Shown in pieces: positions 10,744 through 61,907 of a stretch of DNA of 64,000 nt (positions are counted from its first letter, which is position 1; every line of letters starts with the position of its first letter). Where the stretch lies: assembly GCA_022827055.1 (NCBI GenBank), contig JAJDTR010000088.1, positions 9,043 through 73,042 of the forward strand, given 5' to 3'. A program made the position numbers and the translations under genes. The DNA is from Candidatus Poribacteria bacterium (GTDB lineage: Bacteria > Poribacteria > WGA-4E > JAJDTR01). The notes beneath the pieces are model-generated. The model did not search any database. It was not told the origin of the DNA and saw only the letters and a list, made by a program, of their open reading frames with translations.

Positions 10744-11287
10744 CTATCGCACACATTCCGTGTCTCGTGAGGTGGGATTTATGGGAGACCTGTCGCCGGG
10801 TTTTGTGTTGAATCCGTCATGTAAACCTGATAGAATTGAACTCAGAATAATGCGCTGAATTATACTCCGCTTGTAGGAATCCGTCAAGCCTAAAGAAACC
10901 GAAGAGTCAAGTCAATCGACTCTGATTCTTTGAGGGAGCAGTTGGACGTACACGACCCGTTCTGTGATTGTGAGGACCCTCTACGCCTGTCACATGCTTA
11001 CAATTCCGCGCATGTCAATTAGATAGTATTAGTTCTCTTGAAATGCGAAGTTACGCTCTTCTGGAGCGTTAGACGGCCATACTCCTTCTACATACATAGC
11101 ACTCCGCTGAAGCGCCATGCATGTCTATGTGGACAAATCACTTTTCCGCCTTAGATGACGGAGATCTATAGGCGACATCCGAAAACCTGCGCTATATATC
11201 AATGGATTTGAAAACGGTGGGCGATGCCCACTCTACAGCTTGGAAAAGCAGGCGTGAACTAGAAAAAGAGCAACCATTTTTCATCCA

Positions 11288-25321: not shown

Positions 25322-25560
25322 GGGATCTTTTCTCCTGAACAGTGTGGTTTTGAAAGGGATTCTATCTCTTGATACTAGGGGAAACTTGAGTCCACAACAC
25401 ATCCTAAGTATACAGGTTAATGAAATCTTTGTCAACAGTTTTTCTCTGAGGTGCAGGGGCAATCTCGTCTGATGCCAAACACGATCTACGCAATAAACAG
25501 AAATGATAATTATCTACGGTGATTTCATGCCGCCGGGTACTCGCAGGGAACGACGAATAA

Positions 25561-25662
25561 TCTCTGTGGGAACTCCATCGCACAGGATTCACTATCGCAG
25601 GATTAGCTATGAACTCTATGGGAATTCTATCGCGGTCATTATTCATTCGCTTGATCCTACAG
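25561..25662. repeat. Dispersed repeat family A (CTATCGC / TCGCTTGATC element), copy 1
   Basis: Shares TCTATGGGARYYCTATCGCGG...TCGCTTGATCC with the five other copies. Confidence 0.6.
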
Positions 25663-25877
25663 TCTGAGGTGACTGCCCCGTCCTTCGAGTCATGCATCCT
25701 TCCATGTCCCTCTGGCGGTGATATTGAATTTGCTTGACAGTCCTACCCCTCTTCTCTATAATGCAGATTCGGGTATAAGAGTAAAATCCGGCACGGTCAA
25801 CGATCCTATGAAACTTCATGCGTCCCGCACAGTTAACTCCTCATGCGGTGAACAAAGGCAGTTTACGGCACACGGAG

Positions 25878-26005
25878 GATCTCTATCGCGTTAAGATCTC
25901 TATCGCGCTCGCTATCCACTCGCTTGATCCTATCCGGTCACTTGATCACTCGCTATTCGCTCGCTTGATCTATTCGCTCGTTCGATCCTTATTCAGTCGC
26001 TTGAT
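25878..26005. repeat. Dispersed repeat family A, copy 2 (internally reiterated TCGCTTGATC x4)
   Basis: ctctatcgcg x2 then cactcgcttgatcc / tcgctcgcttgatc / gtcgcttgat sub-repeats. Confidence 0.6.
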
Positions 26006-26073
26006 ACTGCTGCTTTGAAACTATGTCATATACTCTTAGGAAGCAGACTGTAAACCTCGGGAGGTAATGACTC

Positions 26074-26517
26074 ATGTCGACGTTGAAACGGATTCTCGGG
26101 TTTGTCCTTTTAGCTACTGCGGTTGTCGTGGGTATAAACTGGGTAATTACCCCAATACACCACGACGGATCTCCGCAATACCCGGTCTGGAAGGTTGTGA
26201 ACTGGTTCATGGCGTTCTCCGTGGTGGTTGCGCTAATCACGAATATAGCCCGCAAACGTGCCGTTGGAAGTGAGGGAGCGGACAGCCCGATCACACGCGA
26301 ATACTTGGAAGCCAACGTGGCTTTCTACGCATCGCTTCTGTTGGCTCCTTGGTTCTTCACCAACTTTTTGACCTACGACTTTTTTATAGATAACATACCC
26401 GCTGCCGGTTTAGAGGCAAAAGATGTCTGGTGGGAATTCATTGACGGTTTATTCGTGCTAGTGACTGGATCGACAGGCTGTCATCTATGGCGAAGCGCCC
26501 CGGACTCCCAAGGTTAG
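26074..26517 (+). CDS. Small membrane protein (hypothetical)
   Basis: 147 aa with 4 predicted TM helices. No recognisable motif. Confidence 0.45.
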   Translation: MSTLKRILGFVLLATAVVVGINWVITPIHHDGSPQYPVWKVVNWFMAFSVVVALITNIARKRAVGSEGADSPITREYLEANVAFYASLLLAPWFFTNFLTYDFFIDNIPAAGLEAKDVWWEFIDGLFVLVTGSTGCHLWRSAPDSQG

Positions 26518-29201: not shown

Positions 29202-30290
29202 ATGGTTGATGAAGTACGGCGGGAGATAGAAAGAATACGAGAATATATATCAAACGAACGGTTAAGCCAGTTTGATGAAGCTAACACAAAAGCAACCGCC
29301 ATCGAGCCGATTCTGCGCGCACTTGGTTGGGACGTGGCCGACCCCGATGAAGTGAGGCGCGAATTTTCTGTGCGCGCCAGACCGAATGCTCGCCCGGTAG
29401 ACTATCTGTTGTTTTGCGACGACACGCCTAACGTCATCGTTGAAGCGAAAAGGGGCAATCAGTCGTTAGAACGACATCAGGAGCAACTTCAGGATTATGT
29501 CGGTTTCGCACTTTCCGATAATGTTCAAATCGCGGTACTTACCAACGGCGCAGCGTGGTGGTATTATCTGCCCATCCGGGCTGCAAGTTGGGAGCGGAGA
29601 AGAGTCGCGACTGTAGAACTCAGTCAACAAGATAGTAGAGATGTTGCTCAAACATTGGTTAATCTCCTTGGTAAAGAAAATGTCAAATCTGGAAGAGCCA
29701 TTCAAAACGCTGAGAGACATCAGATTTCAGACACCTTACCTAAGATATGGAATCAGCTAATAGCGCAGACTGACAGTTCGATTGTGAATCTCCTTATTGA
29801 ACAAATCCATGGGTTGTGCGTGCGTGAGCCGGATAGGAACGAAGTAGAGCAGTTTCTCTCCGGGCATCTCGAACAGATACAAATAACGCCCCTACCGAGC
29901 ACTCCTGATTCGGTGCCTCCGGTAGAGCCGCATCCCTCGCCGGAACCAAGTCCTTCAGGTTCCGTGACGGGCAAAAAACCAGTTGCATTCATATTTAACG
30001 GAAGCAGATATGAGGTTACATCATGGAGGGCAATGTTAATCAGGCTATGTGAGATAGTTTATTCCGCTCACAGGAATCGCTTTGAGGATGTATTGAGTCT
30101 CAAGGGAAAAACCAAACCTCCCTTTTCAAGAAATGCTGGTGGCATGGCCTCCCCAGTACAAATTAACAGCACAGGAATCTTTGTTGAGACCCATGGCGCC
30201 GCCCAAGCCCTTGTGAAGCGTGCAACAAGGCTAATCACACGCTTTGGATACGGCGAAAACGACCTGTTATTCGAGACTCAGACACCATGA
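29202..30290 (+). CDS. HsdR-N-like (type I restriction enzyme R N-terminal, PD-(D/E)XK) domain protein, paralog A
   Basis: 362 aa. N-terminal NEANTKATAIEPILRALGW...VDYLLF...VIVEAKR (D...EXK catalytic core), characteristic of the HSDR_N-type nuclease domain. C-terminal ~200 aa has no recognised motif. Stop overlaps (ATGA) the start of a response-regulator 5' remnant. Confidence 0.65.
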   Translation: MVDEVRREIERIREYISNERLSQFDEANTKATAIEPILRALGWDVADPDEVRREFSVRARPNARPVDYLLFCDDTPNVIVEAKRGNQSLERHQEQLQDYVGFALSDNVQIAVLTNGAAWWYYLPIRAASWERRRVATVELSQQDSRDVAQTLVNLLGKENVKSGRAIQNAERHQISDTLPKIWNQLIAQTDSSIVNLLIEQIHGLCVREPDRNEVEQFLSGHLEQIQITPLPSTPDSVPPVEPHPSPEPSPSGSVTGKKPVAFIFNGSRYEVTSWRAMLIRLCEIVYSAHRNRFEDVLSLKGKTKPPFSRNAGGMASPVQINSTGIFVETHGAAQALVKRATRLITRFGYGENDLLFETQTP

Positions 30291-30545
30291 AACCAAGCAT
30301 TCTAGTAATTGACGACGAAATCAGCATCTACAAATCCCTACAAGGCGTGTTGGATGACGAGGGTTACACCGTCCAACCGCTCTAAGCAACGGAGAGGGGG
30401 TTTGCCCCTCGCTAATGAGCACATCGATCTTGTCTTCTTGGATATCCCCATGCCCGGTGGGATGGACGGGATCGAAACACCCAAGCGGATGAAACAGATG
30501 TCACCCGACACAGAAGCGCAGGTACATGGGGTTGAACATACGTAA
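30287..30545 (+). pseudogene. Remnant of the 5' ~260 bp of the NtrC-like response-regulator gene (frameshifted receiver-domain fragment)
   Basis: MKPSILVIDDEISIYKSLQGVLDDEGYTVQ then HIDLVFLDIPMPGGMDGIETPKRMKQMS in another frame. Roughly 80-85% nt identity by eye to 33133-33390. Confidence 0.75.
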
Positions 30546-30557
30546 CAGGGTTTAAGA

Positions 30558-31622
30558 ATGTGTGAACAAGTTTTGAATGTAATTGAAAGATGGCAGGCAG
30601 ATGAACGTTTGACTGCATTTAGTGAAGCTAGGATATGTTCTGCGGTTATTGTACCGATATTACGCGGGTTAGGCTGGGATGTTGAGAACCCTGAAGAAGT
30701 GTGGGAACAGTATCCTGTGGAAGAGATAGGTACGGTGGATTATGCTTTGTTGATTGGCAATGAGCCGAAGGTCTTGGTTGAAGTAAAAAGAGGCGGTGAA
30801 TCGCTGGATAGACATCAAATTCAAATTCGGAATTATGCTCGTATAGGCGGGGTTAGCTTAGCAACACTAACCAATGGCGGAACTTGGCGGTTCTATTTGC
30901 CATTGCAGGGGGGAAGTTGGGAGCGGACGAGAGTTGGGGATGTCGTATTTCATGATCAGAACGCTGCAGAAATTACCCAAAGGCTGGTAGACCTTCTCAG
31001 TAGAGAAAATGTCAGCTCTGAGAACGCAATCCGAAATGCAGAAAATCTTCAAGAGAGGAATCGTATATTGAAGGCCTTGCCGAAGGCATGGGAGCAATTG
31101 GTGAATAACAAAATCCCAAATCTCCTCGCAGCACAAGCGCAGGAATTATGCGGACATAAGCCAAGTAGGAACGAAGTGGAGAAATTTCTTTCTGCACATC
31201 TCCAACAGATAACGTCAACTCTGGTTGCCACTGAATCTGTTGCATCTGATGAGCATATTGTAGTGTCCGAATCTGCTACTCAACTAAATCCTTCAGGCCG
31301 CTCGGTACGCACGACATGCCGAGCGTTTACATTTTGCGGAAACAGATATGAGGTTTCGTCGTGGCGCCACATGTTGGTCCGATTATGCGAGATATTGCAT
31401 GCCACTCACAGCGATCGGTTTGAGGAGGTATTGGGTCTCAAAGGAAGGAAACCTTACTTTTCAAAAAAACCTGGAGCTTTGGCAGAACCAAAATTAATCG
31501 AAGGAACAGACATTTTTGTTGAAACCGATGATTCGAAAAGAAACAGAAAGATTGCAGAGCTTCTGATTAGCCTCTTTGGATATAACAAAGGAGAACTATC
31601 TTATGAACCTCGCACATTATGA
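30558..31622 (+). CDS. HsdR-N-like PD-(D/E)XK domain protein, paralog B
   Basis: 354 aa. TAFSEARICSAVIVPILRGLGW...VDYALL...VLVEVKR core. Roughly 35-40% identity to paralog A over the full length. Its stop again overlaps (ATGA) the next response-regulator remnant. Confidence 0.65.
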   Translation: MCEQVLNVIERWQADERLTAFSEARICSAVIVPILRGLGWDVENPEEVWEQYPVEEIGTVDYALLIGNEPKVLVEVKRGGESLDRHQIQIRNYARIGGVSLATLTNGGTWRFYLPLQGGSWERTRVGDVVFHDQNAAEITQRLVDLLSRENVSSENAIRNAENLQERNRILKALPKAWEQLVNNKIPNLLAAQAQELCGHKPSRNEVEKFLSAHLQQITSTLVATESVASDEHIVVSESATQLNPSGRSVRTTCRAFTFCGNRYEVSSWRHMLVRLCEILHATHSDRFEEVLGLKGRKPYFSKKPGALAEPKLIEGTDIFVETDDSKRNRKIAELLISLFGYNKGELSYEPRTL

Positions 31623-31744
31623 CGCCACAACGCAAACCCAACATCTTAATCATTGACGGGAAACCGGCATTTTCTAAATCTTTACAAGATATCTTGGAGG
31701 ATAAGCTTGACACGGTATATTCCTCCATCGGCTGTCACGGTTAG
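31619..31744 (+). pseudogene. Second, more diverged remnant of the response-regulator 5' end (~125 bp)
   Basis: MTPQRKPNILIIDGKPAFSKSLQDILEDKLDTVY then a stop. Aligns to the RR N-terminus MSAKFKPNILIIDDEISICESLQGVLEDEGYTV. Confidence 0.65.
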
Positions 31745-32168
31745 TATCAACTCACTCATCATTGAACCAATTTTGCGGCAATTGGGTTGGAATACGAGTA
31801 ACCCTGATGAAGTGCGACCAGGATATTCTGTAAAACACAGGAGGGTGGACTACGCTTTATTAATCAACAATACAGCCAAGGTATTCATTGAAGTGATAAA
31901 AGGTGGTAAAGCGTTGCAAAGACGTCAAAAGCAACTTCTGCGTGACGTTTTTCATCATGGCGTTGAAATCACAGTACTCACCAACCTCAAAACGTGGTGG
32001 ATTTATCTGCCCATCCGAACAGTAAGTGGGGATCGGAGGAAAGTCGTAACTGTGAAACTTGATCGACGCGATAATACTGAGGCTGCCGAAACGATGGTTG
32101 ATCTCCTTAGCAAAGAAAATGTCAGATCTGGGAGAGCCATCCCAAACGCCGCTTGGCGAGGAAACTAG
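31745..32168 (+). pseudogene. Truncated HsdR-N-like paralog C (lacks N-terminal ~35 aa and the entire C-terminal half)
   Basis: Translation IIEPILRQLGW...VDYALL...FIEVIKGG...WWIYLPIR...SKENVRSGRAIPNA aligns to residues ~35-175 of paralog A and then stops. The six-frame ORF 31653-32168 is a chimera that reads RR remnant 2 out of frame. Confidence 0.6.
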
Positions 32169-32219
32169 CATGAGACTTGAAACTGTTACATGTACTTCTC
32201 ACCGATGGAGGAAAACAAA

Positions 32220-32429
32220 ATGCAAGAGTGGATTGTCACTCTTGAAAAGGATGAAGATGGCTGGTACGTCATAGAATGCCCGGCAATTCCGGGTTGTGTC
32301 TCTCAGGGACGAACAGAGGAAGAAGCGATGGAAAACATCAGGGATGCTATGACCGAATGTTTAGCCGTTCGTGCGGAGGAGGGGCTTCCGTTGAGTGTTG
32401 AAGTTCCGATTGATTCTGCTGTTCGATGA
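32220..32429 (+). CDS. hicB: HicB-like (UPF0150) type II antitoxin, apparently orphan
   Basis: 69 aa. MQEWIVTLEKDEDGWYVIECPAIPGCVSQGRTEEEAMENIRDAM matches the HicB N-terminal RNase-H-like fold consensus. GGAGG ribosome-binding site 10 nt upstream. No adjacent HicA-like ORF seen. Confidence 0.65.
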   Translation: MQEWIVTLEKDEDGWYVIECPAIPGCVSQGRTEEEAMENIRDAMTECLAVRAEEGLPLSVEVPIDSAVR

Positions 32430-32464
32430 ATCGCGAAACGACAAACTAAATGGTTAATTGCCTA

Positions 32465-32737
32465 AGAGCCTGTTTGAAAAATCCGTATTCAAGCTATTTT
32501 TGGTCATTTGAAGACACGTCTTTCGTGATTTCATGCCATGTACCTGTCGCCCCGCCGGGGCTTAGGTGTGCGGGGTTTCGGCATTTCTACACACCTTCAA
32601 GATCTCTATGGGAGTTCTATCGCGGTCACTAATCGTTCCCTTGATCACTCGCTATCCGCTCGTTTAATCCCCTCCGGGGCTATTAGAGGCTGGTGCGCGG
32701 TGCGCACCCTACAAACTGCACTTTTCAAACAGGCTCT
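32465..32737. mobile_element. MITE-like element, copy 1, with 16-bp terminal inverted repeats AGAGCCTGTTTGAAAA
   Basis: Terminal inverted repeats at 32465-32480 and 32722-32737. Internal palindromes GCCCCG-C-CGGGGC and GGTGCGC-GG-TGCGCACC. About 85% identical to copy 2 (61606-61807), except for a ~70-bp nested family-A insertion. Confidence 0.75.
32601..32670. repeat. Dispersed repeat family A, copy 3, nested inside MITE copy 1
   Basis: gatctctatgggagttctatcgcggtcactaatcgttcccttgatcactcgctatccgctcgtttaatcc. Absent from the otherwise collinear MITE copy 2. Closest to the copy at 58807. Confidence 0.7.
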
Positions 32738-32764
32738 AAGTGAATATGGCATAAGACAGCCTCA

Positions 32765-32837
32765 CATGGCACTCCTCTGGAGTGCAAAGCGGTCATACAG
32801 CCGCATTCTATCAACATGGCGCTCCGCTGGAGCGAAA
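32765..32837 (+). repeat. Dispersed repeat family B (double-hairpin element), copy 1
   Basis: catggcActccTctggagTg ...spacer (tcatacagccgcattctatcaa)... catggcgctccgctggagcgaaa. Stems CGCTCC/GGAGCG. Confidence 0.65.
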
Positions 32838-33016
32838 ATGTAAGCATTAAATACTTAGGAAAAGTACCACTAAATGGTTTGCTCGCTAAATAGATAGTGC
32901 TTATGCGGCGTTTGGCTGATTGTCTGAACTGCGATTTATGGGATTCTTGTTGATTGCCTTGATTGCTTGTGATGAGTTGACTAAATCGTTCCTTGAAGCT
33001 AGTAGGATTTAGGGAA

Positions 33017-33047
33017 GAAACCAAGTTTTCAAGAAAAAACTTGGTTT
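33017..33047. promoter_or_regulatory. Perfect 13-bp-stem hairpin / palindrome (GAAACCAAGTTTT-caaga-AAAACTTGGTTTC) 70 bp upstream of the response-regulator start, nested in outer inverted arms (AGGATTTAG / CTAAATCCT)
   Basis: Read directly. No T-run follows it on either strand, so it is more likely an operator or structured 5'-UTR than an intrinsic terminator. Flanked by ACCACTAAATG direct repeats at 32868 and 33076. Confidence 0.4.
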
Positions 33048-33117
33048 CGACGTGTACTAAATCCTTAGCGAGTAAACCACTAAATGCCTAAAATCCAAGT
33101 GAAATTACGAAAACAGT

Positions 33118-34479
33118 ATGAGTGCCAAATTCAAACCCAACATTTTAATCATTGACGACGAAATCAGCATTTGCGAGTCCCTGCAAGGCGTCTTGGAGGA
33201 CGAGGGTTACACCGTCCAAACCGCTCTCAGTGGCGAGGAGGGGATTCGTATCCTTGCGGGTGAGCACATCGACCTCGTTTTCTTGGACATCCTCATGCCC
33301 GGCGGAATGGATGGGATTGAAACGCTCAAGCGGATAAAGCAGATGTCATCCGACACGGAGGTGCTCATGATTTCCGGGCACGGAACGTTTGATCTCGCCC
33401 TGGAAGCCGGACAGTTGGGCGCTTCCGACTTCTTGGGGAAACCGCTTTCGCTCGACAGCATCCTGAGAAAGGTTGAGGCAATCAGCGCGAAGATTGCCAT
33501 CAGGCATTCCGACCGCGATGGGGACACGGATTCGCACGCACACGGCATTGTTGGAGATAGCTCGCAGATTCAGGAGATTCTACTGACAATTCGGCAGGTG
33601 GCGCCGACAAACGGACGGGTGCTCATCACCGGCGAGAGTGGCACAGGCAAGGAGCTCATCGCCCACGCCATTCACGCCTTCAGCGAGCGGACCGAGGCGC
33701 CGCTCGTCAAAGTCAATTGTGCGGCAATCCCCCAAGAGTTGATTGAATCGGAGCTATTTGGACATGAAGCAGGCTCGTTTACGGGAGCGTCTAAGAAGCG
33801 AGTCGGGAAGTTTGAGCAAGCGAATGGCGGGACGATATTCCTGGATGAAATTGGAGATATGAGCTTGTCAACGCAAGCCAAGGTGCTGCGGGTGTTGGAG
33901 GAACGGGAGTATGAGCGAGTCGGCGGGAATCAGACGCTGAGAACGGATGTCCGCGTCATCTCGGCGACGAACAAGCATCTTCCCGACGAAATTGAATCGG
34001 GCAATTTCCGCGAGGATCTTTACTACCGATTGAACGTCGTCCCGGTTCATGTCGCGCCGCTGCGAGAGCGGGTTGAGGATTTGCCGCTGCTTGTGGATTA
34101 TTTCCTGTCGCGATTCTGCCGCGAAAACGGGAAACAGACGATGTCCCTAAGCGATGCCGCCATGAACAATCTTCGGAGACGCGAGTGGCTGGGAAATGTG
34201 CGCGAGTTGCGCAACCTGATGGAAAGAGCCGTTATCCTGTGTCCGAATCAGACGATTGACGAAAGCGATTTATCGAAGGAAATACGACGAGATAGCACTG
34301 ACGGGGACAGTTCGGAGGCATCGCTCAAGGATGCGCGGCAGGAGTTTGAGAGCCGTTTTATTCTTAACTGCCTCAAGGGAAACAGTTGGAACATCACCGA
34401 AACGGCAAAACAACTCGGCATTGAGCGAACGCATCTGCATCGCAAAATGCGCCAGTATGAGATTGAGCGTGAACCGTAG
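33118..34479 (+). CDS. Sigma-54-dependent response regulator (NtrC/AtoC family: receiver + AAA+ sigma54 activator + Fis-type HTH)
   Basis: Receiver motifs DLVFLD and the phospho-acceptor Asp context. GESGTGKE Walker A. GAFTGA loop. C-terminal HTH (TAKQLGIERTHLHRKMRQ). Confidence 0.9.
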   Translation: MSAKFKPNILIIDDEISICESLQGVLEDEGYTVQTALSGEEGIRILAGEHIDLVFLDILMPGGMDGIETLKRIKQMSSDTEVLMISGHGTFDLALEAGQLGASDFLGKPLSLDSILRKVEAISAKIAIRHSDRDGDTDSHAHGIVGDSSQIQEILLTIRQVAPTNGRVLITGESGTGKELIAHAIHAFSERTEAPLVKVNCAAIPQELIESELFGHEAGSFTGASKKRVGKFEQANGGTIFLDEIGDMSLSTQAKVLRVLEEREYERVGGNQTLRTDVRVISATNKHLPDEIESGNFREDLYYRLNVVPVHVAPLRERVEDLPLLVDYFLSRFCRENGKQTMSLSDAAMNNLRRREWLGNVRELRNLMERAVILCPNQTIDESDLSKEIRRDSTDGDSSEASLKDARQEFESRFILNCLKGNSWNITETAKQLGIERTHLHRKMRQYEIEREP

Positions 34480-37021: not shown

Positions 37022-37672
37022 TTACGATTGAGATGGGGATTCTTGGTTGTCCCTGTTTCCGACTTCAGCCTGGAGCGCGTGAGAGACTATTTCAACCTTG
37101 GCAGTGAGTTTGCTTATGTCGGCGTGGGTTGCCTGAGCGTTAGCATGAATTGCCTCGGTGTTGGCATCAATCTTCTCGCCGAGTCTCACCATCTGAGACT
37201 GCATCAATCTCATATCTTCACGAATTTCATTGGTGATTGCCAGGGAAGTGGTAAATACTTTGTCAATCTGCTGTTGAAGATTAGAGGTTTCATTTTCAAT
37301 CTGCTTTTGAAGATTGGATATTTCGCTTCCAATCTGCTGTTGACGACCGGATGTTTCGTTTTCAATCTGCTTTTGAAGATTGGATGTTTCGTTTTCGATC
37401 TGCTTTTGAAGGATGGACGTTCCGCTTTCAATCTGCTTTTGAAGGATGGACGTTTCGTTTTCGATCTGCTTTTGAAGATTGGTTGTTACGCTTCCAATCT
37501 GCTCTTGACGACTTGATGCTTCTTTATCAATTTGCTTTTGGAGGTTGTCTGCTATCCTATTCATTTCTGCCCTACTGGGAATGCGCCATCCCAATAGAAA
37601 TATTGTGACCCCAAAGCCTAAAATAGTGACGATTGGCAACAGCTCTTTCATTGCACCCATCAATTCTACCAC
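37022..37672 (-). CDS. Membrane-anchored coiled-coil protein built from 11-residue tandem repeats (LQKQIENETSN)
   Basis: N-terminal TM helix. About 8.5 copies of an 11-aa heptad-like repeat. C-terminal apolipoprotein-like helices. Confidence 0.55.
   Translation of the reverse strand: MVELMGAMKELLPIVTILGFGVTIFLLGWRIPSRAEMNRIADNLQKQIDKEASSRQEQIGSVTTNLQKQIENETSILQKQIESGTSILQKQIENETSNLQKQIENETSGRQQQIGSEISNLQKQIENETSNLQQQIDKVFTTSLAITNEIREDMRLMQSQMVRLGEKIDANTEAIHANAQATHADISKLTAKVEIVSHALQAEVGNRDNQESPSQS
37262..37545 (-). repeat. 33-bp tandem repeat array (about 8.5 units) encoding the 11-aa LQKQIENETSx repeats
   Basis: Plus-strand unit TTCAATCTGCTTTTGAAGATTGGATGTTTCGTT, repeated head-to-tail with point variants. 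Confidence 0.8.
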
Positions 37673-42850: not shown

Positions 42851-43012
42851 GCCATTATCCCTGTCGGAATAATTCTTTCAGCAAGTAACACTCATCTTTG
42901 GATCTATGACAGGCTTTGAGAAGGTGTTCTTTCGTAAAATGCTTTTCACTCCAGCGGAGTGCTATGTCAATAGAATCGTGATGCGTCTAATCTCCGTGCT
43001 CCAGCGGAGATC
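42851..43012 (-). repeat. Extended family-B composite repeat (left flank of sialidase gene)
   Basis: gccattatccctgtcggaataattctttcagcaagtaac... then a reverse-oriented double hairpin (cactccagcggagtg ... tgtcaatagaat ... ctccagcggaga). Confidence 0.65.
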
Positions 43013-43308
43013 AAGGGAATGGATAATGACCGCGATAGAGATCCTCAATGTGGAGTGTTACTTGAGAGAGTAAATCCAATAATAATTTATACACTGCGGT
43101 AGGTTCCAAGCGGGGGAATATACCGCTACGGGACGAATGACGATCGTGAAGTGGCGTCACACAATCAGCTAGATCAAGTTGCCGCCCATTCCGGTAACTG
43201 TGGAATGTCATTACTGCGCAATGGGATTGATACTCTGTTGGAGGACGCTTTTCCGCAGATGCTATCTGCCGGTAATCCCCAACCCAAGCTGCTTGAAAAA
43301 TGGAATAG

Positions 43309-44570: not shown

Positions 44571-44705
44571 TGCCATTATTCCTGTCGGAATAATTCTTTC
44601 AACAAGTAATACTTTCTAGTCAGAGTCCCATTCCTCGATCCAGCGGATCGAAATGTCAATAGAATGCGACATGTCAAGAGTCCCGCGCTCCCGAGGAGCG
44701 CCATG
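44571..44705 (-). repeat. Extended family-B composite repeat (right flank of sialidase gene, direct repeat of 42851-43012)
   Basis: gccattattcctgtcggaataattctttcaacaagtaat... then cgatccagcggatcg ... tgtcaatagaat ... gcgctcccgaggagcgccatg. Confidence 0.65.
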
Positions 44706-45070
44706 TGGTGGGTTTCTTGGTAAAATGTAGTTGATTTTTGAAGGGCAAAAACGGGCAATCAATCGGACTCACGGTAGTACCTCGGTGATTTTTGCTCGTT
44801 TGTGGATATATACCCCAAGATTTGGTATGTGAAAATTTGAGATTGCACAAGTCTATTATGCGGAAGATAAGTTTCTATTTTCCATAGGTCCGCAAAGTCC
44901 CACGGATCGGGCACACTCAAGGGACGCCTGTTCAAAGACAGGACGATTACGGAGAAATCTGGATTATCCCCGTGTACAGGATGTAACCCTTCCAGTGCAC
45001 TCTAGCACATTGCGTCCAGCCGCTGCCCTTAATTGCTGTTAAGAAAGTCGTTATTGCTACGAAAGCCTAA

Positions 45071-45143
45071 CATGGCGCTCCGCTGGAGCGCAGAACGGTT
45101 ATGTATCTGCTTGCTATTGACAGGTCGCTCCGCTGGAGCGAAA
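45071..45143 (+). repeat. Dispersed repeat family B, copy 4
   Basis: catggcgctccgctggagcg-cagaacggttatgtatctgcttgctattgacag-gtcgctccgctggagcgaaa. Near-identical hairpins to copy 1 at 32765. Confidence 0.7.
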
Positions 45144-52504: not shown

Positions 52505-52563
52505 GGGATTTCTATCGCACTCGCTAATCGCTCGCTTGATTTATTCACTCAGTTGATCGATTC
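52505..52563. repeat. Dispersed repeat family A, copy 4
   Basis: gggatttctatcgcactcgctaatcgctcgcttgatttattcactcagttgatcgattcgg. Confidence 0.55.
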
Positions 52564-52664
52564 GGAGGTCGTTCGTACCCCACATTGCTGGTAGGAGGGA
52601 ATTCCGATTCCCGACAAGGCACTGCACATTCGAGTCGCGATTCGGAGATCGCTCCTACCGGATG

Positions 52665-53944: not shown

Positions 53945-53990
53945 CGTCGCTGCGACGCTTGGTCTATCCGCTCGCTTGATTGCTTAGACC
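53945..53990. repeat. Dispersed repeat family A, copy 5 (short)
   Basis: ggtctatccgctcgcttgattgcttagacc, in the 60-bp gap between the outer-membrane protein gene's stop and the dtd start. Confidence 0.45.
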
Positions 53991-58806: not shown

Positions 58807-58895
58807 ATCTATGGGAGCCCTATCGCCTTCACTAATCGTTCAGTTGATCATTCGCTACTGGCTCACTTAATTTTTTCGCTCGTTTGATCCCACCC
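58807..58895. repeat. Dispersed repeat family A, copy 6
   Basis: atctatgggagccctatcgccttcactaatcgttcagttgatcattcgctactggctcacttaattttttcgctcgtttgatccc. Collinear with copy 3 at 32601. Confidence 0.65.
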
Positions 58896-61415: not shown

Positions 61416-61605
61416 GTGGTCAGTGACTAGTGAAATTCCTAACCCGTTCTATGGTGTAGTGGAGTAAGTATCTTGTGTCAGTTTCGTAAGCATCTAATGC
61501 ATATGGAGCCGACGCAGGAAACATGCTTTTCGCCGTGTAGGTCGGGCTTCTAGCCCGACGCTAGGAGACATTCCGCTTAGCCAAACCTAATCCGTGATAT
61601 CCTTT

Positions 61606-61807
61606 AGAGCCTGTTTGAAAATTCGGTAGCCAAGCCATTTTTAGTCATTTGAAGACACGTTTTTGTAATTTCCCGATATATACCTGTCGCCCCGCTGGGG
61701 CTTGGCGTACAGGGTTTCGGTATTTCTACATACCTTCCGCCCCTCCGGGGCTTTTAAGGCTGGTGCGCGGTGCGCACCTTACAAAATGTACTTTTCAAAC
61801 AGGTTCT
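61606..61807. mobile_element. MITE-like element, copy 2 (AGAGCCTGTTTGAAAA terminal inverted repeats, no nested insert)
   Basis: About 200 bp. Collinear with 32465-32737 minus the family-A insert. Lies directly upstream of the lipoprotein gene at 61908. Confidence 0.75.
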
Positions 61808-61907
61808 TAATCTTTTTAATCTACGATTCGCCCAGCTACAAAATTGCGCTTTCCTTATGCCATATTCTTTTTGTGAAAAAACCACTAATTCCCGAGGATT
61901 GTCAACC

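What the first reader, a model, noticed from the sequence alone, without database searches (positions are those of the whole stretch)
25561..26005. Dispersed family-A short repeat (CTATCGC...TCGCTTGATC), six copies, all intergenic
- The copies are at 25561-25662, 25878-26005, 32601-32670, 52505-52563, 53945-53990 and 58807-58895.
- They share TCTATGGGAGYYCTATCGCGG, then CACTAATCGTTC..TTGATCA, then TCGCT(A/C)..GCTCG(C/T)TTGATCC blocks.
- Copy 2 reiterates the TCGCTTGATC sub-unit four times.
- They sit in a 610-bp divergent promoter region (two copies), inside a MITE, and in short gaps between convergent or tandem genes.
- They behave like REP/BIME-type or small non-autonomous elements and may shape local termination or mRNA stability.
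- TCGCTTGATC-like half-sites could also be a regulator-binding motif that got amplified.
Basis: seen in the sequence. Interest (0 to 1): 0.5.

Follow-up and report, generated by a model that had tools for sequence, protein, structure and literature searches.

The report
Tiny hairpin repeat family of Poribacteria
The flagged motif is a real repeat about 37 bases long, found so far only in sponge-symbiont Poribacteria genomes, that keeps a small base-paired hairpin, sits inside other hairpin repeats and comes and goes between strains; it looks like a very small REP-like mobile element and not a gene switch.

Summary
The repeat is real. A 30-nt degenerate core matches 6 times in the window against 0 expected. 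Copy 5 is only a weak fragment, and a full copy at 43009-43046 (minus strand) was missed.

The unit has sharp ends: GGGATCT-CTATCGC-NN-TC-RY-TAWYC-RY-TC-NN-TTGATC, about 37 nt. Head units and 17-23-nt tail units can be reiterated.

The exact core pattern was found only in Candidatus Poribacteria MAGs (13 assemblies). It gave no hits in JGI metagenome or viral contigs.

The NN/NN and RY/RY positions covary as Watson-Crick pairs (82 stem haplotypes in 225 copies), around a conserved mismatch that reads GA/GA on the reverse strand.

Copies show no orientation bias relative to genes and make no target duplication. They sit preferentially in loops or arms of other hairpin repeats, including GTAG-tagged REPs that flank a REP-associated tyrosine transposase (RAYT) gene.

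Presence and unit number differ between related genomes. Among otherwise identical strain contigs, a 17-nt unit inside copy 2 is present or absent.

Best reading: a lineage-specific, REP/BIME-like, non-autonomous hairpin micro-element that probably moves as single-stranded DNA. The mobilising enzyme is not shown. The regulator-site and mRNA-stabiliser readings are not supported.

The parts
25561..25619 (+). Degenerate, reiterated head units (GGAT..CTATCGC / CTATGGGA type) preceding copy 1
   Evidence: Read directly and aligned. Similar reiterated heads occur in other Poribacteria loci.
25620..25657 (+). Full element, copy 1. It is followed directly by CTAC.
   Evidence: nhmmer E = 2.7e-10; exact pattern match 25627-25656.
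25877..25891 (+). Extra head unit (GATCTCTATCGCGTT) in front of copy 2
   Evidence: E = 0.42, head positions 2-16 of the profile.
25894..25930 (+). Full element, copy 2
   Evidence: nhmmer E = 1.1e-11; exact pattern match 25900-25929.
25931..26006 (+). Array of four or five tail units (..TCRCTTGATC) behind copy 2. The 17-nt unit 25953-25969 (CTATTCGCTCGCTTGAT) is present or absent among otherwise identical strain contigs.
   Evidence: The indel is the only difference over about 640 nt among five contigs.
32610..32670 (+). Full element (32610-32647) plus one hairpin tail unit, copy 3. It is a clean insertion of about 70 nt into a MITE compared with its sister copy at 61584-61809, with no target duplication.
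32443..32745 (+). Host MITE (terminal inverted repeats AGAGCCTGTTTGAAAA) that carries copy 3. Its right part holds a GTAG-type REP hairpin, GGTGCGC-GGT-GCGCACC-CTAC.
   Evidence: (D15, D17, D18, I23).
43009..43046 (-). It is inserted at the 5' foot of a GCTCC-GCT-GGAGC hairpin repeat. The orthologous copy in OZ244829.1 (L013 2041-2086) has an identical core.
   Evidence: (I2-I4).
52505..52563 (+). Full element (52505-52540) plus one tail unit, copy 4. It is followed by a REP-like CGGAGGTCGTTCGTACC.
   Evidence: nhmmer E = 1.8e-10 and 0.029; (1 mismatch).
53964..53980 (+). It is a relic at best.
   Evidence: nhmmer E = 0.16, profile positions 20-36 only.
58813..58889 (+). Full element (58813-58849) plus two degenerate tail units, copy 6. 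It is followed by the half-REP CCACCCAACA.
   Evidence: nhmmer E = 7.6e-08; (D4, D9).

Best explanation
Family A is a Poribacteria-specific family of very small, modular, non-autonomous repeat elements.

**Unit.** The unit is about 35-37 nt: GGGATCT-CTATCGC-[NN-TC-RY-TAWYC-RY-TC-NN]-TTGA(TC).

**Structure.**
- Sequence: 5'-ATC-AA-nn-GA-ry-GRWTA-ry-GA-nn-GC-GAT.
- It has three short Watson-Crick helices separated by conserved 2x2 internal loops. One of these loops can form tandem G.A pairs.

**Behaviour.** Copies are added to and lost from intergenic DNA without target-site duplication. They go preferentially into the loop or loop-proximal arm of other hairpin repeats (GTAG-tagged REPs, xCC-GCT-GGx hairpins, a MITE). 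They also grow and shrink by whole units, like a minisatellite.

**Inferred mechanism.** The elements are probably handled as single-stranded DNA by a hairpin-recognising enzyme. The only candidate seen is the Poribacteria REP-associated tyrosine (HUH/Y1) transposase, whose flanking REPs themselves carry family-A inserts.

**Shown and not shown.**
- Shown: the family, its limits, the covariation, the nesting, the lack of gene-orientation bias, and the presence/absence and unit-number polymorphisms.
- Inferred only: single-stranded DNA as the active form, and RAYT as the mobilising enzyme.
- Any effect on neighbouring genes would be incidental.
For: **The family is real and lineage-specific.**
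- The window holds 6 matches against 0 expected.
- Every exact-pattern hit in the genome collection (111 blocks from 13 assemblies) is Candidatus Poribacteria.
- There are no hits in JGI metagenome or viral contigs.

**The element has sharp ends.** The information profile over 169 copies drops to background outside GGGATCT...TTGATC(CC).

**The hairpin is maintained by covariation.**
- 112 of 177 copies have perfectly complementary outer dinucleotides, using 9 different dinucleotides.
- All four inner pairs show changes on both sides. No shuffle out of 500 reaches the observed score, and the slid controls are far lower.
- 82 stem haplotypes occur in 225 copies, and the variants coexist in every genome.
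- Tail units keep the pairing.

**One strand is favoured.**
- Counting G.T as paired, 96% of cells pair on the complementary strand against 83% on the motif strand.
- RNAalifold finds a consensus hairpin only on the complementary strand.
- The wobble asymmetry persists when counted by haplotype, 35 against 12.

**Copies are gained and lost.**
- Copy 3 is a clean insertion in a MITE.
- Filled and empty versions exist for at least eight host repeats. There is no duplication, and 0-5 nt of the target are replaced.
- Orthologous loci differ by whole elements or units.
- A 17-nt unit indel is the only difference among five strain contigs at the flagged locus.

**Copies are nested in other hairpin repeats, in a preferred orientation.**
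- 33% of clusters have CTAC within 16 nt downstream, against 5.8% at random.
- 17% lie in GCT-hairpin arms, against 0.9% at random.
- CTAC lies downstream in 82 clusters and GTAG upstream in 19.

**A RAYT is present.**
- NCBIfam REP_Tyr_transpos scores 180 bits against a cut-off of 80. Pfam Y1_Tnp also matches.
- The gene sits at a syntenic locus and is flanked by inverted GTAGGGTG[CG]GC REPs. Family-A copies lie in or next to those REPs.

**There is no orientation bias.** None is seen relative to genes (49 against 48) or to local GC skew.
Against: - The hairpin is thermodynamically marginal. It averages -5.7 kcal/mol as RNA and -1.8 as DNA, no better than shuffled sequences. The window copies have positive z-scores. 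The fold would therefore need a protein or non-canonical pairs that the energy model may undervalue.
- The strand asymmetry rests mainly on two pair positions (7/23 and 12/18). The other two pairs show none.
- No conserved flanking tetranucleotide or fixed target was found. Junctions are not uniform: 0-5 nt of the target are replaced.
- No protein family is enriched next to the elements.
- The RAYT's own flanking repeats are the GTAG REPs, not family A.
- Part of the spread could be hitch-hiking inside host repeats, or tandem slippage, rather than autonomous insertion.
Confidence: 0.6

Rival explanations
1. Passive passenger. Family A does not move on its own. It arose once or a few times inside hairpin repeats (REPs, the MITE). 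It then spread only because those hosts are copied, and it changes locally by replication slippage and quasi-palindrome template switching.
For: - About half of the clusters sit inside recognisable host repeats.
- The same junction recurs in many copies of one host, for example GCGCAG|GGGATCT...GATC|GCACC.
- Unit-number changes of 17 and 34-35 nt look like slippage.
- No dedicated enzyme or fixed target motif was found.
Against: - The element occurs in at least eight unrelated host contexts and in about half of cases outside any recognised host.
- Different stem haplotypes occupy the same site of one host.
- 80-nt inverted doublets are present or absent at unique, non-repeat orthologous sites whose flanks are 96-97% identical.
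- Template switching would also have 'repaired' the conserved TC/TC (GA/GA) mismatch, which is invariant.
Confidence: 0.17
2. Double-stranded DNA binding module. The element is a binding-site cassette for a nucleoid-associated or regulatory protein, comparable to the IHF-binding motif inside some E. coli BIMEs. The repeated GATC and TCGCTTGATC motifs would be the contacts.
For: - Direct sub-repeats have an 11-12-nt period, and a GATC lies at each end of the unit.
- Divergent, promoter-containing gaps hold copies more often than convergent gaps: 31 against 13 intergenic regions.
- Copies 1 and 2 bracket a perfect TTGACA-17-TATAAT promoter.
Against: - Arbitrary dinucleotides that stay complementary across a non-palindromic core are not what a duplex-binding protein selects.
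- Flanking genes share no function.
- Copies turn over between close relatives.
- Divergent gaps are simply longer, which can explain the excess.
Confidence: 0.1
3. Structured RNA. The hairpin functions in transcripts, as a UTR stabiliser, a processing site, a protein-binding motif, or a small RNA of its own.
For: - There is compensatory covariation, with G.U-type wobbles concentrated on one strand.
- RNAalifold predicts a consensus hairpin on that strand only.
- A tandem GA/GA loop is a common RNA motif (established knowledge).
Against: - The hairpin strand is sense to flanking genes as often as antisense (49 against 48).
- No promoter or terminator is associated with the unit.
- Rfam has no match, even at E up to 1.
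- The elements lie inside DNA repeats of a transposase system, and their orientation is tied to the REP tag, not to genes.
Confidence: 0.08
4. Chance similarity or low-complexity sequence around a 10-bp core.
Against: - The window holds 6 matches to a 30-nt degenerate core against 0 in 100 shuffles.
- Hundreds of copies with sharp ends occur in 13 assemblies.
Confidence: 0.01

Closest known systems
REP elements and their RAYT transposases (GTAG-tagged repetitive extragenic palindromes; Nunvar 2010, PMC2817692; Di Nocera 2013, PMC3733652; REPINs, Bertels and Rainey 2011, PMC3116915)
   Same: - Family A is short (about 37 nt), high-copy and extragenic.
- It forms a hairpin maintained by compensatory changes.
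- It is lineage-specific and occurs in either orientation relative to genes.
- A RAYT is present in the same genomes.
- In two assemblies the elements occur as 80-nt inverted doublets resembling REPINs.
   Different: - Family A has no GTAG or CGTC tag of its own.
- Its stem is three 2-3-bp helices broken by conserved mismatches, not a G+C-rich palindrome, and it is thermodynamically weak.
- Stem sequences are combinatorially variable within one genome.
- The RAYT gene is flanked by a different repeat (GTAGGGTGCGC...), and family A sits inside that repeat.
BIMEs of enterobacteria (mosaics of REPs with conserved extra-REP motifs, some binding IHF)
   Same: - Intergenic mosaics are built from several repeat modules.
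- Family A behaves like a conserved non-REP module placed between or inside REP arms.
- Module number varies.
   Different: - BIME internal motifs are not known to carry their own covarying hairpin, or to occur alone at many sites.
- Family A is also found outside REP contexts, and in tandem arrays of itself.
- This comparison rests on my own knowledge of BIMEs, not on a test here.
Small dispersed repeats (SDR) of Nostoc and Anabaena (Elhai et al. 2008, Genome Res 18:1484; paper not held, cited from memory and via reference 43 of PMC3116915)
   Same: - Both are very small (under 40 nt) dispersed elements with a predicted hairpin.
- Both are inserted without target duplication, often nested in other repeats.
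- Presence and absence can be seen between paralogous or orthologous sequences.
- The closest non-Poribacteria relatives of the Poribacteria RAYT are cyanobacterial.
   Different: - The sequences are unrelated and the host phylum is different.
- Family A is longer and modular (head, hairpin and TTGATC linker, each able to reiterate).
- Family A shows much richer stem covariation.
BOX elements of Streptococcus pneumoniae and other modular small repeats
   Same: Both have a modular build, with a middle module present in variable number and copies in intergenic positions.
   Different: - BOX elements are 100-200 nt, with boxA and boxC forming a long stem.
- There is no sequence or structural similarity to family A.
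- This is a resemblance in architecture only, recalled from my own knowledge.

Membership tests
REP (RAYT-associated repetitive extragenic palindrome) | Short (20-40 nt), extragenic and present in high copy number | tested here: met
   The core is about 37 nt. There are 447 profile hits in 0.95 Mb of Poribacteria DNA (blocks chosen for holding a match). In the window, 6 full copies lie between long ORFs.
REP (RAYT-associated repetitive extragenic palindrome) | Imperfect palindrome able to form a stable stem-loop | tested here: inconclusive
   Pairing is strongly supported by covariation. The predicted stability is no better than that of shuffled sequences.
REP (RAYT-associated repetitive extragenic palindrome) | Conserved GTAG (or CGTC) tetranucleotide at one end of the element | tested here: not met
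   Information content falls to background right after TTGATC(CC). CTAC lies within 16 nt in only 28-33% of copies, and there it belongs to a host REP.
REP (RAYT-associated repetitive extragenic palindrome) | The cognate RAYT gene is flanked by the same repeat in inverted orientation | tested here: not met
   In L036, L097 and L112-L115, L117 and L118 the RAYT gene is flanked by GTAGGGTG[CG]GC...CACC REPs. Family A occurs only as an insert in or near some of them.
REPIN | Two copies in inverted orientation with a short spacer, forming the replicative unit | tested here: inconclusive
   Inverted doublets with a 19-nt spacer occur in OZ240245 and OZ245030 and are present or absent at orthologous sites. 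The window and most genomes carry singlets or direct arrays. The two arms of a doublet differ at the covarying positions.
MITE | Terminal inverted repeats of a parent IS, target-site duplication, and a length of about 100-400 nt | tested here: not met
   Only GGGATC/GATCCC (6 nt) at the ends. No duplication at any of about 18 filled/empty junctions. Median cluster length is 38 nt.
IS200/IS605-derived elements (PATE type) | A hairpin near each end, and insertion 3' of one fixed tetra- or pentanucleotide | tested here: not met
   The unit has a single hairpin. Flanks show no fixed short target.
BIME | Regular alternation of inverted REPs separated by conserved motifs | tested here: inconclusive
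   Mosaics of REPs, GCT hairpins and family A are seen. No regular alternation was established.
CRISPR array | Identical repeats separated by unique spacers of similar length | tested here: not met
   Units abut each other directly or are dispersed singly.
Any Rfam RNA family | Match to a curated covariance model | tested here: not met
   No match at gathering score in the window. None at E up to 1 in 25500-26100.
Cyanobacterial SDR | Very small (21-27 nt) hairpin element, inserted without duplication and nested in other repeats | not testable with these tools
   The defining paper is not held. The behaviour is similar, but the sequence and host differ. This is an analogy, not membership.

The most novel reading that the evidence does not exclude
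Family A may be a hyperparasitic micro-element, a roughly 35-nt single-stranded-DNA hairpin that specifically colonises the loops and arms of REP-type hairpins and is copied by the host's domesticated RAYT or another HUH enzyme. Recognition would depend on shape and on conserved non-canonical G.A pairs rather than on stem sequence. That would make it a second tier of replicator living inside the REP/RAYT system, and the smallest element with its own selected structure.
Probability: 0.25. Interest if true: 0.65.

Novelty: new variant of a known kind. Interest (0 to 1): 0.45.

Why it matters
- Poribacteria are uncultivated sponge symbionts, and their repeat content has not been described. Two literature searches found nothing relevant.
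- This family, together with the GTAG REPs, GCT hairpins and MITEs it nests in, shows that their intergenic DNA is a layered, fast-changing mosaic.
- It gives a compact marker for strain typing. A unit-number difference is the only change in a 640-nt region across samples.
- It is a caution for gene callers, which place small ORFs over the arrays.
- If the hairpin is a transposase substrate, it is a clean natural case of recognition by structure: 82 stem variants share the same conserved mismatches and loop. That would be useful for work on how HUH enzymes and REP systems choose DNA.

Tried and rejected
- **Rfam:** no family matched at gathering score over the whole window or at E up to 1 over the flagged region. 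There are no tRNAs.
- **Terminators:** the scan of the flagged region found none.
- **Orientation relative to flanking ORFs:** no bias.
- **Orientation relative to local GC skew or chromosome position:** no signal. Eight-kb blocks and weak skew make this test poor.
- **Co-occurring protein family next to the elements:** nothing was enriched.
- **Motif scan for Y1 transposases:** found RAYT in L036 and L097 but none in the window.
- **Fixed target or tag:** CTAC is enriched but belongs to host REPs.
- **Clean empty site in orthologous DNA:**
  - Between the window and L006 the intergenic DNA is too diverged.
  - Between the window and L013 the array is present in L013 only, but the junctions are not clean.
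- **Thermodynamic support for the hairpin:** not obtained.
- **Other collections:** the JGI metagenome and IMG/VR scans returned nothing.
- **Literature:** the Elhai 2008 paper could not be read.
- **CRISPR, integron attC, DNA-uptake sequence and operator-array readings:** considered and dropped. The spacing, the conserved boxes and the covariation pattern do not fit.
Full report
**Observation**

I read the six claimed copies and their surroundings. Repeat finding over the whole window recovered the family (D4, D6, D9, D16).

The core is far above chance:
- A degenerate 30-nt core, CTATCGCNNTCRYTAWYCNYTCNNTTGATC, matches six times with up to two mismatches, against none in 100 shuffles.
- The 10-mer TCGCTTGATC with up to one mismatch matches 17 times, against 6.8 expected.

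A profile built from related copies (nhmmer) gives these full elements:
- 25620-25657
- 25894-25930
- 32610-32647
- 43009-43044 (minus strand)
- 52505-52540
- 58813-58849

It also finds partial units at 25877-25891, 25947-25970, 32646-32665, 52542-52559 and 53964-53980.

All copies lie between long ORFs. Flanking genes are unrelated in function: TIG/Big_5, a sigma-54 activator, FG-GAP, BNR, PhyH, DUF4432 and others.

**Where it occurs**

An exact-pattern scan of one genome per species found at least 111 eight-kb blocks. All were from Candidatus Poribacteria MAGs, in 13 assemblies.

The same pattern has no match in the JGI metagenome contigs or in IMG/VR.

The window itself is Poribacteria DNA:
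- Bases 37.6-45.9 kb align at 84-99% identity to OZ244829.1 (L013).
- Bases 2.8-9.2 kb align at about 90% to OZ242354.1 (L006).

Two literature searches found nothing on repeats in this phylum.

**Anatomy**

Over 169 copies, information content rises abruptly at GGGATCT and falls to background just after TTGATC(CC). The minimal element is therefore GGGATCT-CTATCGC-NN-TC-RY-TAWYC-RY-TC-NN-TTGATC, about 37 nt.

Longer versions are modular:
- The head (GGGATCT CTATCGC, or CTATGGGA variants) can be reiterated, as in window 25561-25619 and 25877-25891.
- A 23-nt tail unit (the 17-nt NN..NN module plus TTGATC) can be reiterated, as behind copies 2, 3, 4 and 6.
- In some loci, whole 35-nt units repeat head to tail.

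Across 252 oriented clusters the median length is 38 nt and the maximum is 173 nt.

**Covariation**

The two NN dinucleotides are complementary in 112 of 177 copies and use nine different dinucleotides. The RY pairs covary as well.

On a 150-sequence alignment, all four inner pairs show changes on both sides. No shuffle out of 500 reaches the observed covariation score, and structures slid by 1-3 columns score far lower.

There are 82 stem haplotypes among 225 copies. Outer and inner stems combine freely, and all the main variants coexist within each genome. Tail units without a head keep the pairing.

The six window copies alone carry five different outer pairs. The conserved positions are the unpaired ones: TC opposite TC, the loop TAWYC, and the flanks.

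**Which strand folds**

Several observations favour that strand:
- Counting wobbles, 96% of cells pair on the complementary strand (133 of 150 copies form all four pairs).
- RNAalifold predicts a consensus hairpin only for the complementary strand: ATC/GAT, then nn/nn, then ry/ry, around a five-base loop.
- On that strand the invariant mismatch reads 5'-GA/5'-GA. Both steps lie mostly in a pyrimidine-GA-purine context. From established nucleic-acid chemistry, this favours tandem sheared G.A pairs. This last point is inference and was not tested.

Two caveats apply:
- The asymmetry comes mainly from two pair positions. It is 35 against 12 when counted by haplotype and 28 against 12 among singletons, and the other two pairs show none.
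- The fold is weak. Mean energies are no better than for shuffled sequences, and the window copies have positive z-scores with DNA parameters.

The structure is therefore supported by evolution and not by thermodynamics. That points to a protein-assisted or non-canonical fold.

**Behaviour**

Copy 3 is a clean insertion of about 70 nt into a MITE (32443-32745) compared with its sister at 61584-61809.

Across the loci I found filled and empty versions of many host repeats:
- GGTGCGC-AGT-GCGCACC-CTAC: 23 empty and 9 filled.
- GGAG-ATCG-CTCC-TAC, and GCAC-TCC-GCT-GGAGTGC.
- CG-CCCC-GCT-GGGG, GGTGCGG-TTAGAAA-CCGCACC-TAC, GGGGC-AAGAT-GCCCC and TCGATCC-GCT-GGATCGA.

At these junctions there is never a target duplication. 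Between 0 and 5 nt of the target are replaced. The site is the loop, or the arm next to the loop, just 5' of a C-rich arm.

Nesting is strongly non-random:
- 33% of clusters have CTAC within 16 nt downstream, against 5.8% at random.
- 17% sit in the 5' arm of GCT hairpins, against 0.9% at random.

Orientation relative to the REP tag is biased: CTAC lies downstream in 82 clusters and GTAG upstream in 19. Many of those 19 are inverted pairs of family-A elements.

In contrast, orientation relative to flanking genes is random: 49 sense and 48 antisense intergenic regions. It is also unrelated to local GC skew.

**Turnover**

Related genomes differ in whole elements and units:
- The orthologous gap in OZ244829.1 carries a family-A array of about 200 nt and an extra MITE that the window lacks.
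- Between OZ240245 and OZ245030, where flanks are 96-97% identical, 80-nt inverted doublets are present in one genome and absent in the other.
- Between OZ244829 and OZ246960, an array differs by one 34-35-nt unit.

The flagged locus itself varies between strains. Five contigs from different samples encode the identical downstream protein. They are 100% identical over about 640 nt, except that the 17-nt unit CTATTCGCTCGCTTGAT (window 25953-25969, inside copy 2) is absent from two of them.

One orthologous copy is conserved: window 43009-43046 and L013 2041-2086 share an identical core.

**A candidate enzyme**

A motif scan of all ORFs found a 192-aa protein in L097 (OZ244829.1) and in L036. 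It is a REP-associated tyrosine transposase (RAYT): NCBIfam NF047646 scores 180 bits against a cut-off of 80, and Pfam Y1_Tnp also matches.

Its relatives are first Poribacteria and then cyanobacteria at 57-60% identity. The gene lies at a syntenic locus, between an HD-domain gene and a 166-aa gene next to a methyltransferase gene.

In most of these loci it is flanked by inverted GTAGGGTG[CG]GC...CACC REPs, which is the classical RAYT arrangement. Family-A copies lie within 30-400 nt of the gene, and several sit inside those REPs.

This shows that the genomes have a hairpin-processing, single-stranded-DNA enzyme, and that its substrates host family A. It does not show that the enzyme moves family A. 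No other protein family is enriched near the elements, and no RAYT lies in the window.

**Interpretation**

The best-supported reading is a lineage-specific, REP/BIME-like, non-autonomous micro-element. Its selected feature is a small irregular hairpin on one strand. It is inserted and lost without duplication, prefers other hairpin repeats, and expands or contracts by units. I put confidence in that general statement at about 0.6.

The specific step 'mobilised as single-stranded DNA by RAYT' is inference, at perhaps one in three.

Rival readings are weaker:
- **Passive hitch-hiking plus slippage.** This explains part of the data. It does not explain the many host contexts, the different haplotypes at one host site, or the doublets at unique sites.
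- **A duplex protein-binding cassette.** This does not explain complementary covariation.
- **A cis-acting RNA.** This is contradicted by the lack of orientation bias relative to genes, and by the orientation tie to the REP tag.
This is not supported.
This is supported as an analogy.

**Comparison and novelty**

Family A works like a REP, but it fails two defining REP features tested here. It has no GTAG or CGTC tag of its own, and it is not the repeat flanking the RAYT gene.

It also fails the MITE criteria (no real terminal inverted repeats, no duplication) and matches no Rfam family.

In behaviour it is closest to the small dispersed repeats of Nostoc. That comparison is cited from memory and through PMC3116915, because the original paper is not held. 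It also resembles the extra-REP motifs of BIMEs.

I therefore class it as a new variant of a known kind. It is of moderate interest overall. It would be more interesting to specialists if it proves to be a second-tier replicator inside the REP/RAYT system that is recognised by shape rather than by stem sequence.

Noticed in passing
window 32443-32745 and 61584-61809: Two copies of a 230-300-nt MITE with terminal inverted repeats (AGAGCCTGTTTGAAAA / TTTTCAAACAGGCTCT). Each holds two GCCCC-GCT-GGGGC hairpins and a GTAG-type REP (GGTGCGC-GGT-GCGCACC-CTAC). Further copies occur in many Poribacteria loci. One is inserted in L013 relative to window position about 40981.
   Followed up: partly
window 11086-11122, 32752-32838, 42939-42976, 44635-44706, 45058-45143: A separate dispersed hairpin family (ATTGACAT..GCACTCC-GCT-GGAGTGC and relatives). 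It is a frequent host for family-A insertions in other genomes.
   Followed up: partly
window 25734-25762 (+): A perfect sigma-70-type promoter, TTGACA-17-TATAAT (12 of 12), lies between copies 1 and 2. It points at the 147-aa gene at 26074, so the copy 2 array would lie in that gene's 5' leader.
   Followed up: partly
window 52563-52583 and 52638-52660: Two REP-like units (GATTCGGAGGTCGTTCGTACC and GATTCGGAGATCGCTCCTACC) lie just downstream of copy 4. This is the GGAG-ATCG-CTCC-TAC type that hosts family-A inserts elsewhere.
   Followed up: partly
window 37230-37547: A tandem array with a 33-nt period, at least seven copies at 66-85% identity, lies inside a long ORF region (37022-37672). It is probably a coding 11-residue repeat.
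   Followed up: no
window 29202-34479: A cluster of paralogous response-regulator and sigma-54-activator genes has long internal DNA similarities (repeat families D2, D8, D10, D12, D13 and D19). Copy 3 and its MITE lie between two of these genes.
   Followed up: no
L113 2300-2360 and 2375-2440: GTAG-type REPs next to the RAYT gene carry a different loop insert of about 38 nt (GTCGGTGATTATCAAATCACTGATTTCCGATCTTACG). REP loops in these genomes therefore host more than one family of small inserts.
   Followed up: no
L116 1057-3082: In one Poribacteria contig the RAYT gene is present as three tandem 193-aa copies at the otherwise single-copy syntenic locus.
   Followed up: no
L095 1-2400 and L097 (OZ244829.1, 4.704-4.720 Mb): This region is very dense in repeat mosaics next to the RAYT gene. 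It has 16 family-A copies in one orientation and 2 in the other within 16 kb. These are interleaved with small ORFs encoding coiled-coil-like proteins (for example the ORF at about L095 1553-1900).
   Followed up: no
L119, L120 831-1073; L121 682-1109; L122 1053-1480: Gene callers place small ORFs without Pfam hits (42-80 aa) over the family-A arrays at the flagged locus. The calls differ between contigs with almost identical DNA, so they are probably spurious.
   Followed up: no
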